Of a stretch of DNA of 64,000 nucleotides, positions 26,176-28,405 are shown one piece after another. A program made the position numbers and the translations under genes. Source of the DNA: a virus (lineage: Duplodnaviria; Caudoviricetes); IMG/VR virus record IMGVR_UViG_3300036982_000556, positions 3,498 to 67,497 of that record; one strand, written 5' to 3'. Position 1 is the first letter of the stretch. Each line of letters opens with the position of its first letter. Below the pieces are notes generated by a model. That model worked only from the letters and a program-made list of their open reading frames with translations. It was not told the origin of the DNA and made no database searches.

Positions 26176-26847
26176 GTGTCAAACATTGTTGAGCAGTTAC
26201 GGGGTTTGTGTGTTCCTGTTGAGGAGTTGCGTACTCTGACGGGGAACGCACGGCAGGGTGATGTTGAAGCGGTGATGAGGTCTCTTGACAGGTTCGGTCA
26301 GCGGAAACCGATTGTTGCTCAGGTTGGTTCTAACGAGATCATTGCGGGGAACCATACGTTCGCAGCGGCGAAGCGTCTTGGTTGGACTGAGATCGCTGTT
26401 GTGTGGGTTGAGGATGACGATACGACGGCTAAGGCGTTTGCGTTGGCTGACAATCGGACTTCTGAGCTTGGCGGTTATGACAACGACTTGCTCGCGAAGA
26501 TGATTCAGGAGGTGATGGACGAGGACACGGATCTTCTCCTTGCCGCTTCTTACACTGAGGAAGACTTGGCTTCTTTGTTGTCGAACACGGGGGCGGACGA
26601 CCTACTGGGCGACGAGCTTCCGGTTCCTGAGACACGCAAGGCTCCGGTGAAGTTGGCGGAACGGTTCGTTGGTTTGCCGGTGAGTGTGTTGAATAGTCGT
26701 GAGGGTTGGTGGCAGGATCGGAAACGGGCGTGGACTGATCTTGGGATTGAGTCTGAGTTGGGTCGTGATGGTAAACCGTTGACTTGGAATGTTGCCGTGC
26801 CGCAAGGTCACGGCCATCAGGCGACGGATATGGTGCAAAATGGGTGA
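26176..26847 (+). CDS. ParB-like domain plus N-terminal segment of a methyltransferase family
   Basis: GNARQG...FGQRKPIV...AGNHT...ALADNRT; then SVLNSREGWWQDRKRAW. Confidence 0.85.
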   Translation: MSNIVEQLRGLCVPVEELRTLTGNARQGDVEAVMRSLDRFGQRKPIVAQVGSNEIIAGNHTFAAAKRLGWTEIAVVWVEDDDTTAKAFALADNRTSELGGYDNDLLAKMIQEVMDEDTDLLLAASYTEEDLASLLSNTGADDLLGDELPVPETRKAPVKLAERFVGLPVSVLNSREGWWQDRKRAWTDLGIESELGRDGKPLTWNVAVPQGHGHQATDMVQNG

Positions 26848-28405
26848 ACCTGAAGTTGAGGGTTACGGTGAGGGTTCAACTTCGCTGTTCGACCCGGTTT
26901 TGTGTGAACTTGTTTACAGGTGGTTCAGTCCACCCGGCGGTCAGGTTCTTGATCCGTTCGCAGGTGGTTCGGTTCGGGGGATTGTTGCGTCGAAGTTGGG
27001 TCGTGAGTACACGGGTATTGACGTTCGCCCCGAGCAGGTAGAAGCAAACAGGTTGCAAGGTGAAAGGTTGTGTCGGGGGCTTTCGTTTGTGCCGGATGTC
27101 CCCGAGGATCACATGCCTGATCTGACTCCGGTTGAAACACATGGTGACATCTGGTTGAAGCGTGAAGATCATTACGTTTTTGGTGGGGTGAGGGGTGCGA
27201 AAGTTCGGACTTGTATGCTTCTGGTTGAACGTGCGCGTGAACAGGGCGTGGGGGTCATCACGGCTGGGTCAAGGCAGTCGCCGCAGGTGAACTTTGTGGC
27301 TCAGATCGCAGCGGCGTTGGGTGTGAAGTGTCGGGCGCATGTCCCGTCTGGCGATCTGACACCGGAACTTCTTGCGGCGCGTGGCGCTGGTTGCGAGTTG
27401 ATTCAACATCAGGCGGGGTACAACACGGTGATCGTTGCGCGTGCGCGTGAGGATGCCGCTGAGTCTGGTTGGGTTGAGATCCCGTATGGGATGGAAGCAC
27501 CGGAAGCGGTGGAGTTCACGAAACCGCAGGTTGCGAATATCCCTGACGGTGTTCAGCGGATCGTGAACAGTGTTGGCTCAGGAATGACCCTTGCAGGCAT
27601 CCTATGGGGTCTAGTTGAGGCGGGGAGGAACATTCCGGTAGTTGGTGTGTGTGTCGGCCATCCGCCCTTAGAACGCCTTGAGAGGCACGCACCACCCGGA
27701 TGGCAAGACATGGTGACGATTGTTGACCACCCGTCTGATTACCATGACGAGGCAGCGGTGACTGTGTTTCGTGGGGTGCAGTTGGACCCGTGGTACGAGG
27801 CGAAGTGCATTCCGACGTTGCAAACAGGCGACTTGTTATGGGTTAGCGCTATCCGACCGTCAGTTGTACTCGCCGCCGCACCACTGCCCCAGTGGGTTGA
27901 GGGGGATGCCGCTGAGGTGAGCGAGTTGTGTGAAGGGTTGGAAGCCGATTTGTGGTTTTCGTGTCCGCCATACGGTGATCTTGAAGTGTACTCGGACGAC
28001 CCCCGTGATCTATCGACGATGGATTACTCAACTTTTATTGAGTCATTCCGACAGATTGTTGATGAGTCAACAAAACTGTTGAAGGATGATCGGTTCGCTG
28101 TTGTCGTCGTCGGAGACTTCCGTGGCCCCGACGGGAACTACCGCAACTTTGTTTCAGACACGATCAGCGCTTTCCAAGACGCAGGACTCGCCTTGTATAA
28201 CGAGGCGATCCTTGTAACGAATCTCGCTTCACTGATTCTGCGTGTCGGTAAACAGTTCGACGTATCCCGCAAGATGGGCAAGTCGCATCAGAATGTCCTT
28301 GTGTTCTTGAAGGGTGATGCTCGCGCAGCAACACGCGCTTGTGGCCCGGTGCAGGCCGGGGATCTGACTGCTGAGGCCACGGAAAGCGTCCAACCCGAAT
28401 CGTAG
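26840..28405 (+). CDS. DNA methyltransferase with an inserted fold-type-II PLP enzyme domain
   Basis: VLDPFAGGS motif I; insert with IWLKRED...GAKVR and GSGMT; then FSCPPY motif IV. Confidence 0.85.
   Translation: MGEPEVEGYGEGSTSLFDPVLCELVYRWFSPPGGQVLDPFAGGSVRGIVASKLGREYTGIDVRPEQVEANRLQGERLCRGLSFVPDVPEDHMPDLTPVETHGDIWLKREDHYVFGGVRGAKVRTCMLLVERAREQGVGVITAGSRQSPQVNFVAQIAAALGVKCRAHVPSGDLTPELLAARGAGCELIQHQAGYNTVIVARAREDAAESGWVEIPYGMEAPEAVEFTKPQVANIPDGVQRIVNSVGSGMTLAGILWGLVEAGRNIPVVGVCVGHPPLERLERHAPPGWQDMVTIVDHPSDYHDEAAVTVFRGVQLDPWYEAKCIPTLQTGDLLWVSAIRPSVVLAAAPLPQWVEGDAAEVSELCEGLEADLWFSCPPYGDLEVYSDDPRDLSTMDYSTFIESFRQIVDESTKLLKDDRFAVVVVGDFRGPDGNYRNFVSDTISAFQDAGLALYNEAILVTNLASLILRVGKQFDVSRKMGKSHQNVLVFLKGDARAATRACGPVQAGDLTAEATESVQPES

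What the first reader, a model, noticed from the sequence alone, without database searches (positions are those of the whole stretch)
26840..28405. PLP-dependent enzyme domain inserted inside a DNA methyltransferase, suggesting a novel base modification
Seen: the SAM-binding motif (VLDPFAGGS, GIDVRPEQ) and the catalytic-type motif (FSCPPY) are separated by a ~240-aa insert (~27120-27860). The insert has fold-type-II PLP motifs (IWLKRED...GAKVR with a candidate Schiff-base Lys, AGSRQSPQ, GSGMT phosphate loop). Known: PLP enzymes decarboxylate amino-acid-DNA adducts in phage thymidine hypermodification, working with 5-hmU kinases and amino-acid:DNA transferases; none of these partners was recognised in this window. 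Inference: the two domains may act together, e.g. transfer of a SAM-derived group (possibly aminocarboxypropyl rather than methyl) followed by PLP-dependent decarboxylation or elimination.
Basis: partly seen in the sequence, partly recalled or inferred. Interest (0 to 1): 0.8.

Follow-up and report, generated by a model that had tools for sequence, protein, structure and literature searches.

The report
Phage DNA methylase carrying PLP enzyme
A phage gene for a DNA-methyltransferase-type enzyme has a complete vitamin-B6 (PLP) enzyme nested inside it, and because that PLP part is related to the only enzymes known to trim amino acids attached to phage DNA, this widespread, unstudied module may put something other than a methyl group on DNA.

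Summary
The gene at 26840-28405 (+) encodes a class-I SAM-dependent DNA methyltransferase (MTase). It is a circularly permuted PF01555 type with an invariant (S/T)CPPY motif IV. A roughly 269-residue fold-type-II PLP domain (27074-27880) is nested between helix alphaB and strand beta3. All PLP residues are invariant across the family. It is not an assembly chimera: the nested form recurs in three cultured phages and in more than 100 metagenomic protein clusters.

New here: the PLP domain's nearest phage families are phrog_3650 and phrog_7093. These hold ViI gp226 and M6 gp52, the experimentally proven decarboxylases of amino-acid adducts on phage DNA. The PLP domain joins CPPY-type MTases in every topology: nested, C-terminal fusion, N-terminal fusion and adjacent gene. 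Some relatives add a GNAT acetyltransferase or an AspH-like oxygenase. The window's genome lacks the known thymidine-hypermodification partners.

Best reading, confidence about 0.45: the MTase-like domain transfers the SAM aminocarboxypropyl group to a DNA base, and the PLP domain decarboxylates it to an aminopropyl group. The main objection is that two thirds of the MTase relatives sampled have no PLP partner yet share an indistinguishable core. No chemistry was tested.

The scan has reported the same architecture on other DNA at least eight times, with the same reading.

The parts
26176..26847 (+). Upstream gene (223 aa). It holds a ParB_N domain plus, at residues ~141-222, the conserved 'PPF/VxVL..R.G.W..RK..W' element. 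In fused homologues this element is the N-terminal part of the MTase.
   Evidence: ParB PHROGs 723/620 match at E 3e-40 and 2e-33, and phrog_498 (ParB-MTase) matches positions 38-205. Its C-terminal part aligns to the N-termini of the insert-less MTase L006 and of L009. The fused homologue P0008 covers it at 74% identity.
26840..28405 (+). MTase-PLP gene (521 aa from ATG 26840). The ORF is open from 26789, and the residue numbers used in this report count from 26789.
   Evidence: ATG 26840 overlaps the ParB stop TGA 26845-47. Relatives at 74-96% identity are 519-533 aa long. In their contigs the gene also overlaps an upstream ParB ORF, by 4 and 14 nt.
26879..27073 (+). MTase N-terminal half. 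It contains the motif-X-like SLFDPVLCEL, motif I VLDPFAGGS (D55 at 26951-53) and motif II GID (D78).
   Evidence: PF01555 profile positions 176-218 match. This stretch is 78% identical to the Mae-JY30 MTase. D55, G60 and S61 are invariant.
27074..27880 (+). Nested fold-type-II PLP domain (~269 aa). Key residues: Schiff-base Lys K138 (27200-02), S164-P165-Q166 (27278-86), phosphate loop G263-S264-G-M266 (27575-86) and Y336-E337-A-K339 (27794-805).
   Evidence: Matches: PF00291; phrog_3650 at E 1.2e-31 and phrog_7093 at E 4e-15; PDB D-cysteine desulfhydrase and ACC deaminase by sequence and by fold. The residues listed are invariant in 114-121 family members.
27881..28366 (+). MTase C-terminal half. 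It contains beta3 (PQWVEGDA), motif IV FSCPPY (C392 at 27962-64, Y395 at 27971-73), DLEVYS, GDxR, YNE and RKxGKxHQN.
   Evidence: This stretch is 60% identical to the Mae-JY30 MTase. The best PDB sequence match is TTHA0409 (2zie), whose TSPPY aligns to SCPPY. Cys stands before PPY in 213 of 214 family motifs.
25342..25836 (-). Context: a second, stand-alone ParB_N gene. It is transcribed divergently and lies next to the small terminase gene (24825-25310, minus strand).
   Evidence: PF02195 matches at E 2.6e-7, phrog_620 at E 2.7e-37, and phrog_4102 (terS) at E 7e-33.

Best explanation
This is a two-enzyme DNA-hypermodification module. With its ParB partner it is encoded by two translationally coupled genes, and it lies about 1.5 kb from the small terminase gene.

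Shown: the outer protein is a SAM-binding, DNA-amino-methyltransferase-type Rossmann enzyme of a distinct (S/T)CPPY family. The nested domain is an intact PLP enzyme homologous to the phage decarboxylases that act on amino-acid side chains attached to DNA bases.

Inferred: the MTase-like domain uses SAM to place its 3-amino-3-carboxypropyl (acp) group, not its methyl group, on a flipped-out base. MTA, not SAH, would then be the by-product. The PLP domain would form an aldimine with the free alpha-amine of the adduct and remove CO2. The product would be a positively charged 3-aminopropyl base.

A variant with the same end-product: the PLP domain decarboxylates SAM to dcSAM first, and the Rossmann domain then transfers aminopropyl, as spermidine synthase does.

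The ParB partner would load or activate the enzyme on DNA. The likely benefit to the phage is protection from host nucleases. The target base and atom are unknown.
For: 1. The PLP domain is catalytically intact. K138, S164, Q166, G263, S264, M266, D333, Y336, E337 and K339 are invariant in 114 to 121 homologues at 52-96% identity. The acidic residue after Tyr (YE, or YD in some relatives) matches the ACC deaminase Y294-E295 signature.

2. The nearest families hold experimentally characterised enzymes.
- The insert hits phrog_3650 (E 1.2e-31) and phrog_7093 (E 4e-15).
- ViI gp226 is phrog_3650 (E 2.5e-241), and M6 gp52 is phrog_7093 (E 2e-159).
- Both are purified PLP-dependent decarboxylases of amino-acid:thymine conjugates in DNA (PMC8989533).
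- A profile of the insert family hits gp226 at 7e-16 and gp52 at 1e-11. Shared motifs are KR(D/E)D, GxK, S-P-Q, GYNS, QVAN(I/L)P and YE(A/G)K.
- tblastn with the insert finds 333 phage records, mostly ViI-like.

3. The coupling to the CPPY MTase is specific and does not depend on topology.
- Of 263 retrieved proteins, 191 are nested, 26 are C-terminal fusions, 5 are N-terminal fusions and 31 are stand-alone.
- In the bacterial-genome loci sampled (79 distinct), the PLP gene is a separate gene beside the MTase in 13 or 14, depending on the count.
- The adjacent-gene form also occurs in phages AlanGrant/Vincenzo and Mae-JY30.
- Cys stands before PPY in 213 of 214 motifs.

4. Some relatives add tailoring enzymes that need an amino-acid or amine side chain.
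- A PALP-GNAT acetyltransferase fusion lies 4 nt downstream of a CPPY MTase.
- AspH-like 2OG-oxygenase domains are fused to two family members.

5. No other source of an amino-acid adduct was found in this genome. There is no TS-like hydroxymethylase, TET/JBP, M6-type amino-acid:DNA transferase or 5-hmU kinase. Ten neighbouring ORFs have no PHROG hit.

6. Own knowledge, not tested here: class-I MTase folds do transfer acp (TYW2) or aminopropyl (spermidine synthase). Pairing SAM-derived acp transfer with PLP decarboxylation has a precedent in Mur24/Mur23.
Against: - No chemistry was tested.
- Of the 77 genome loci where an MTase core could be extracted, 60 have no PLP gene within 8 kb.
- PLP status is scattered over the MTase tree. 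Well-supported branches force at least 4 changes, and parsimony gives 21. L027 and L042 are near-identical cores, one with and one without a partner.
- No alignment column separates the 30 PLP-associated cores from the 60 PLP-free cores (largest frequency difference 0.42). All catalytic motifs are identical in both groups. So either the whole CPPY family transfers acp, which is unproven, or it simply methylates and the PLP enzyme does something else.
- Every characterised PF01555 enzyme is an N6-adenine or N4-cytosine methyltransferase.
- The insertion point, the alphaB-beta3 loop, lies at the edge of the sheet away from the SAM methionine end. This is inferred from the fold topology. Active-site proximity could not be measured.
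- Similarity to gp226 and gp52 is remote, at 24-28% identity.
Confidence: 0.45

Rival explanations
1. The enzyme is an ordinary DNA methyltransferase with a PLP helper. The CPPY enzyme makes m6A or m4C. The PLP domain acts on the cofactor rather than on DNA. For example, it could destroy or decarboxylate the inhibitory product SAH, or convert SAM, so as to speed bulk methylation of phage DNA or to deplete host SAM.
For: - MTase cores with and without the PLP partner are indistinguishable, and most have no partner.
- The MTase belongs to the PF01555 superfamily, whose characterised members methylate.
- The PLP active site carries the ACC deaminase-type Tyr-Glu pair. ACC deaminase handles a four-carbon amino acid that derives from SAM (plus own knowledge).
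- The coupling works in any fusion topology and as separate genes, which suits a diffusible substrate.
Against: - The nearest characterised relatives act on DNA-bound amino acids, not on small molecules.
- The S-P-Q motif is shared with gp226 and not with ACC deaminase or D-cysteine desulfhydrase, which have S-N-H.
- The GNAT and AspH-like fusions are hard to explain for a cofactor-recycling role.
- I know of no PLP enzyme that degrades SAH this way.
Confidence: 0.22
2. The two activities are independent and share only a tether. The MTase methylates. The PLP decarboxylase trims an amino-acid adduct installed by a different, still unrecognised enzyme of the phage or host. The MTase and ParB merely deliver it to DNA.
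For: - gp226 and gp52 work on adducts made by unrelated transferases.
- Many ORFs around the locus have no recognisable family.
- The record is only 83% complete.
Against: - The only partner that stays constant across very different phage and prophage backgrounds is the CPPY MTase.
- No amino-acid:DNA transferase, 5-hmU kinase, TS-like or TET/JBP gene was found here.
Confidence: 0.18
3. The PLP fold is a non-catalytic module inside an ordinary MTase, serving dimerisation, DNA recognition or regulation.
For: - It sits where other MTase classes carry variable regions.
- Fold-type-II enzymes are usually dimers (own knowledge).
- The MTase works without it in most relatives.
Against: - The Schiff-base Lys, the phosphate loop, the Ser, and the Tyr with its acidic neighbour are invariant (the acidic residue is Glu, Asp in a few distant relatives) in nested, fused and stand-alone forms at down to about 28% identity.
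- Insert-less homologues join the two MTase halves directly, so nothing structural is missing.
Confidence: 0.08

Closest known systems
ViI gp226 (YP_004327553, phrog_3650) and M6 gp52 (YP_001294560, phrog_7093): PLP-dependent decarboxylases of amino-acid:thymine conjugates in phage DNA (Lee et al. 2021, PMC8989533)
   Same: Both are compact fold-type-II PLP domains. The insert's best phage families are these two. It shares the Lys, S-P-Q, GYNS, QVAN(I/L)P and YE(A/G)K motifs with gp226. The stand-alone partners AlanGrant gp2 and the Mae-JY30 downstream gene are outright members of the two families (E 3e-106 and 4e-55).
   Different: Identity is only 24-28%. Here the domain is nested in, or coupled to, a SAM-dependent MTase rather than to a 5-hmU kinase and an amino-acid:DNA transferase, and those partners are absent. 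The substrate cannot be O-SerT or C-alpha-GlyT.
Phage ParB-N6_N4 methyltransferase fusions (surveyed in PMC12704722) and PF01555 amino-methyltransferases such as TTHA0409 (PDB 2zie), CcrM and M.MboIIA
   Same: It has motif I DPFxGxG, a PPY motif IV and a class-I fold, and it is coupled to ParB. The MTase halves are 60-78% identical to the insert-less Mae-JY30 MTase.
   Different: The motif order is circularly permuted (I before IV). An invariant Cys replaces the D/N/S before PPY. A whole PLP enzyme is nested between alphaB and beta3. No member of this CPPY family has a published activity that I could find.
ACC deaminase / D-cysteine desulfhydrase (PDB 1f2d, 1tzk, 4d8t, 7ysk)
   Same: These are the best solved-structure matches by sequence and by fold. 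The aligned features are the Lys, the phosphate loop and the Tyr-Glu pair.
   Different: The insert is about 70-90 residues shorter. It has S-P-Q in place of S-N-H. E-values are only 1e-5 to 1e-8, against 1e-31 to the phage decarboxylase family.
SAM-dependent acp and aminopropyl transfer: TYW2 with the hydroxylase TYW5 in wybutosine synthesis, spermidine synthase, and Mur24/Mur23 (own knowledge; functional analogy only)
   Same: These show a class-I MTase fold using SAM or dcSAM as a donor of a C3/C4 amino-alkyl group. They also show acp transfer followed by PLP decarboxylation (Mur24/23) or by 2OG-oxygenase hydroxylation (TYW5). The latter parallels the AspH-like fusions seen here.
   Different: No homology to any of these was tested or is claimed. 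Their substrates are tRNA, polyamines or nucleoside antibiotics, not DNA.
ParB-dependent phage T-dioxygenases (PMC13229309)
   Same: A ParB-like protein encoded next to a post-replicative DNA-base-modifying enzyme acts as its activator.
   Different: The modifying enzyme there is a different one (Fe/2OG dioxygenase). No TET/JBP gene is present in this genome.

Membership tests
PALP (PF00291), fold-type-II PLP enzymes | Profile match above Pfam's gathering score | tested here: met
   63.8 bits against a cut-off of 35, E 2.2e-17, residues 117-298.
PALP (PF00291), fold-type-II PLP enzymes | Schiff-base lysine and glycine-rich phosphate loop | tested here: met
   K138 aligns with the GNK(L/T)R lysine of D-cysteine desulfhydrase and ACC deaminase, and GSGMTLAG aligns with GSAGTHAG. 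Both are invariant in the family.
PALP (PF00291), fold-type-II PLP enzymes | Predicted fold | tested here: met
   The AF2 model has pLDDT 90.1. Top Foldseek hits are 7ysk, 4d8t, 1j0a and 1tzk, at E 5e-14 to 2e-11.
ACC deaminase / D-cysteine desulfhydrase | Tyr followed by Glu (ACC deaminase) or Thr (D-cysteine desulfhydrase) in DPVY(E/T)GK | tested here: met
   LDPWYEAK aligns with DPVYEGK of 1f2d. Y336 and E337 are invariant.
ACC deaminase / D-cysteine desulfhydrase | Q-S-N-H segment (Ser78 and Asn79 contact PLP) and a full-length domain of about 330-340 aa | tested here: not met
   The segment is R-x-S-P-Q (S164, P165, Q166). The domain is about 250-269 aa.
Phage DNA-acting PLP decarboxylases (phrog_3650 / phrog_7093; ViI gp226, M6 gp52) | Significant profile match to the families that hold the characterised enzymes | tested here: met
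   The insert hits phrog_3650 at 1.2e-31 and phrog_7093 at 4.2e-15. gp226 and gp52 were confirmed as members. The reciprocal profile search gives 7e-16 and 1e-11.
Phage DNA-acting PLP decarboxylases (phrog_3650 / phrog_7093; ViI gp226, M6 gp52) | Co-occurrence with a 5-hmU DNA kinase and an amino-acid:DNA transferase (aGPT-Pplase), and with a source of 5-hmU | tested here: not met
   No match was found to M6 gp51 or gp54 (single-sequence searches, low sensitivity). There is no PF00303 and no PF12851 match, though the PF12851 control rang in no genome. The record is 83% complete.
Phage DNA-acting PLP decarboxylases (phrog_3650 / phrog_7093; ViI gp226, M6 gp52) | Decarboxylation of an alpha-amino-acid side chain on a base in polymeric DNA | not testable with these tools
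   This needs enzyme assays or nucleoside LC-MS.
N6_N4_Mtase (PF01555) DNA amino-methyltransferases | SAM-binding motif I (D/E)xFxGxG, with a profile match above the cut-off | tested here: met
   VLDPFAGGS. The score is 42.9 bits against a cut-off of 26.7, but only profile positions 176-218 match. The C-terminal half matches profile positions 2-111 weakly (E 2e-4) and matches 2zie at E 1e-13.
N6_N4_Mtase (PF01555) DNA amino-methyltransferases | Motif IV (D/N/S)PP(Y/F/W) | tested here: inconclusive
   PPY is present, but the first position is an invariant Cys (213 of 214). It aligns with the Ser of TSPPY in 2zie.
N6_N4_Mtase (PF01555) DNA amino-methyltransferases | Beta-class motif order (IV to VIII, then X, then I to III) | tested here: not met
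   Motif I precedes motif IV, so this is a circular permutation of the Pfam model.
N6_N4_Mtase (PF01555) DNA amino-methyltransferases | Methyl transfer to N6-adenine or N4-cytosine | not testable with these tools
   No experimental data on any CPPY-family member were found.
SAM-dependent acp / aminopropyl transferases (function proposed here, not a sequence family) | Transfer of the C3/C4 amino-alkyl part of SAM or dcSAM, with MTA as by-product | not testable with these tools
   This rests on inference only. Against a special adaptation, no residue distinguishes PLP-associated from PLP-free cores.

The most novel reading that the evidence does not exclude
The whole (S/T)CPPY ParB-linked 'methyltransferase' family consists of DNA 3-amino-3-carboxypropyl transferases. 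Members coupled to the PLP domain convert the adduct to a 3-aminopropyl base. Some lineages tailor it further by N-acetylation (GNAT fusions) or hydroxylation (AspH-like fusions). This would be a SAM-derived, wybutosine-like hypermodification pathway acting on DNA, and no described system does that.
Probability: 0.35. Interest if true: 0.88.

Novelty: new variant of a known kind. Interest (0 to 1): 0.72.

Why it matters
All known amino-acid-derived phage DNA hypermodifications start from 5-hydroxymethyl-pyrimidines and use free amino acids. This module offers a different entry point: a SAM-dependent enzyme hard-wired to a DNA-type PLP decarboxylase.

If the module makes aminopropyl or acp bases, that would be:
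- a new class of DNA chemistry;
- a new activity for the very large PF01555 methyltransferase superfamily;
- a caution for annotation, because thousands of 'DNA methylase' calls in phages and prophages could be wrong.

The family is large. The insert alone matches 369 clusters (at 50% identity) at E<=1e-30. It occurs in prophages of cultured bacteria (Sinorhizobium shofinae, Rhizobium subbaraonis, Bartonella choladocola; a Devosia ginsengisoli MAG also carries it) and in cultured phages (Pam4, R6L/ZS04, AlanGrant/Vincenzo). The question is therefore directly testable by nucleoside mass spectrometry.

If the module only methylates, the PLP helper would still be an undescribed way of managing SAM or SAH.

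Tried and rejected
- Assembly chimera: rejected, because the architecture recurs in isolates and in more than 100 independent clusters.
- Sequencing frameshift between the ParB gene and the MTase gene: considered, because the fused homologue P0008 reads straight through the junction and the two window frames abut at GGG-TGA. Rejected as an error because relatives with different junction sequences keep two overlapping genes. A programmed +1 shift was not excluded.
- Dnd-like sulfur chemistry (ParB, a PLP desulfhydrase-like domain and PAPS reductase): there is no PAPS reductase in this genome, although one relative has one nearby.
- Thymidine-hypermodification route: its partners are absent.
- A re-tooled MTase active site in PLP-associated members: no discriminating column was found, and the members do not form one clade.
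- Active-site distance: model coordinates are not released by the tools, so it was not measured.
- Literature: six full-text searches found no paper on a PLP-MTase fusion or on aminopropyl or acp DNA bases.
- Iyer et al. 2013 (PMC3763556), cited in an earlier scan note, is not held, so its prediction could not be checked.
- The BFVD fold search added nothing beyond the sequence hits.
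Full report
**What is there.** The window is a phage record: an IMG/VR contig of 67.5 kb, estimated 83% complete. It carries terminase, portal, capsid and tail genes.

Pfam places a PALP domain (PF00291, E 2e-17) at residues 117-298. That lies between the motif-I end of PF01555 (residues 44-86) and a C-terminal half bearing FSCPPY. 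The insert-less family phrog_12517 matches in two stretches on either side.

tblastn with annotated phage proteins fixes the insert at 27074-27880. The Microcystis phage Mae-JY30 MTase aligns to 26879-27073 (78% identity) and then directly to 27881-28366 (60% identity).

The AlphaFold2 model is confident (pLDDT 90.1, pTM 0.85). It shows a normal class-I MTase topology, with the PLP domain looped out between helix alphaB (81-95) and strand beta3 (368-371). Foldseek's best solved matches are D-cysteine desulfhydrase and ACC deaminase.

**Gene structure.** The upstream ORF 26176..26847 encodes a ParB_N domain. It also encodes a conserved 'PPF..W..RK..W' element that belongs to the N-terminus of the MTase in other phages.

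In fused homologues such as P0008 (741 aa, 72-74% identical) one frame runs straight through. In the window the ParB frame ends ...ATDMVQNG-TGA, and the MTase frame starts at the overlapping ATG 26840. Relatives at 76-79% identity keep a separate ParB ORF overlapping the MTase-PLP start by 4 or 14 nt, with different junction sequences. The two-gene form is therefore real and probably translationally coupled. A programmed +1 shift at GGG-TGA was not excluded.

**Recurrence.**
- All 120 best hits in 5.8 billion proteins carry PF00291 plus PF01555, with or without ParB.
- The insert alone finds 920 representatives of 50%-identity clusters, 369 of them at E<=1e-30. Most lie inside proteins of 500-1300 aa.
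- Among the 263 retrieved proteins, 191 are nested, 26 carry the PLP domain after the MTase, 5 carry it before, and 31 are stand-alone.
- In the bacterial and archaeal genome loci holding this MTase (79 distinct), 4 are nested or fused. A further 13 or 14, depending on the count, have the PLP gene immediately adjacent. About 60 have none within 8 kb.
- The adjacent-gene form also occurs in Mycobacterium phages AlanGrant and Vincenzo and in Mae-JY30.
- The PLP clade is tied to one MTase family: 213 of 214 motif-IV instances read (S/T/G)C-PPY.

**Catalytic residues.** Both active sites look intact.
- In the PLP domain K138, S164, Q166, G263, S264, M266, D333, Y336, E337 and K339 are invariant.
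- In the MTase D55, G60, S61, C392, P393, P394, Y395, E399, Y401 and S402 are invariant.
- K138 aligns with the Schiff-base Lys of D-cysteine desulfhydrase and ACC deaminase. Y336-E337 aligns with the ACC deaminase Y-E pair.
- The stand-alone partners keep the Lys, the GSG loop and Y(E/D)(A/G)K.

**The key link.** Lee et al. 2021 (PMC8989533) purified ViI gp226 and M6 gp52. They showed that both are PLP-dependent decarboxylases acting on amino-acid:thymine conjugates in DNA. They modelled gp226 on the ACC deaminase homologue 1j0a.

I fetched both proteins. gp226 is phrog_3650 (E 2.5e-241) and gp52 is phrog_7093 (E 2e-159). These are the two best phage families for the window's insert (1.2e-31 and 4e-15). 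AlanGrant gp2 (3e-106) and the Mae-JY30 partner (4e-55) are outright members.

A profile of the insert family hits gp226 at 7e-16 and gp52 at 1e-11. It shares the S-P-Q, GYNS, QVAN(I/L)P and YE(A/G)K motifs with gp226. tblastn with the insert finds 333 phage records, mostly ViI-like. By contrast, cellular ACC deaminase and D-cysteine desulfhydrase score only 1e-5 to 1e-8 and have S-N-H where this family has S-P-Q.

**Where would the amino acid come from?** The genome has no TS-like hydroxymethylase, TET/JBP, PAPS reductase or AspH gene. It has no homologue of the M6 amino-acid:DNA transferase or 5-hmU kinase. Ten flanking ORFs have no PHROG hit.

The one constant partner is the SAM-binding MTase-like enzyme, and SAM carries an alpha-amino-acid (acp) group. 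Some relatives add enzymes that would tailor such a side chain. One is a PLP-GNAT acetyltransferase fusion 4 nt downstream of a CPPY MTase, in a locus that also holds Mom and a TS-like gene. Others are AspH-like 2OG-oxygenase fusions.

From this comes the best reading: acp transfer followed by PLP decarboxylation to an aminopropyl base. The alternative order, SAM decarboxylation and then aminopropyl transfer, gives the same product.

**The main objection.** PLP status is scattered across the MTase tree. Well-supported branches force at least 4 changes, and parsimony gives 21. Near-identical cores exist with and without a partner. No alignment column separates 30 PLP-associated cores from 60 PLP-free cores.

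So either the whole CPPY family transfers acp, or it methylates and the PLP enzyme is a helper or acts on something else. The fact that any fusion topology works argues against a composite active site. It fits sequential action on DNA, but it fits a diffusible substrate equally well. I therefore hold the main reading at about 0.45, with three rivals.

**Literature and earlier notes.** ParB-N6_N4 MTase fusions are known to be phage-enriched (PMC12704722). A ParB can activate a phage DNA-base dioxygenase (PMC13229309). No paper on a PLP-MTase fusion or on acp or aminopropyl DNA bases was found.

The scan's own notes show that this architecture was reported at least eight times on other DNA with the same gp226/gp52 reading. 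I reached that link independently, before reading those notes.

**Verdict.** This is an undescribed, widespread variant that combines two known enzyme kinds, and its chemistry is untested.

Noticed in passing
window 26830-26850: The junction between the ParB gene and the MTase-PLP gene reads CAA AAT GGG TGA A. A +1 slip at GGG-TGA would recreate the fused protein seen in homologue P0008. Both an overlapping ATG (translational coupling) and a prfB-like programmed frameshift are therefore possible.
   Followed up: partly
window 1546-3156 (-) and 3212-4189 (-): There is a second, different ParB-DNA methyltransferase fusion (536 aa; phrog_67 and phrog_498; PF01555 over cut-off). It lies next to a DUF932 gene. 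In all, the window carries three ParB-domain genes.
   Followed up: partly
window 46920-47987 (-) and 47984-49093 (-): Two tandem paralogous genes (355 and 369 aa) lie among the head-tail genes. Only their first ~80 residues match D12-class N6-adenine methyltransferases (PF02086, phrog_56). The rest matches nothing.
   Followed up: no
window 8274-9845 (-) versus 24825-25310 (-): The large terminase gene lies about 15 kb from the small terminase gene. The small terminase gene sits next to the ParB / MTase-PLP locus.
   Followed up: no
L097:5340-10577 and the contig of P0004: Close relatives carry a 'ParB-coupled modification island'. After the ParB and MTase-PLP genes come a further ParB gene, an unannotated gene (weak HalD hit), a PAPS-reductase gene followed by its own ParB gene (L097), or two more PF01555 MTases (P0004 contig).
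   Followed up: no
L099:4156-12478: This cassette runs: CPPY MTase (613 aa), PLP-GNAT fusion, a small minus-strand ORF, PF01555 MTase, Mom (PF25680), three unannotated genes, then a thymidylate-synthase-like gene. It is a dense DNA-modification cluster in a 90-kb metagenomic contig.
   Followed up: partly
P0121, P0032 (homologues): Some family members carry an intein with a LAGLIDADG domain inside the MTase-PLP protein. Others are fused to family-A DNA polymerase (P0135) or to a second class-I methyltransferase (P0140).
   Followed up: no
window 26001-28000: This 2-kb block has the strongest positive GC skew (+0.26) and the strongest negative AT skew (-0.18) in the window. It coincides with the plus-strand ParB / MTase-PLP genes in a mostly minus-strand genome.
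   Followed up: no
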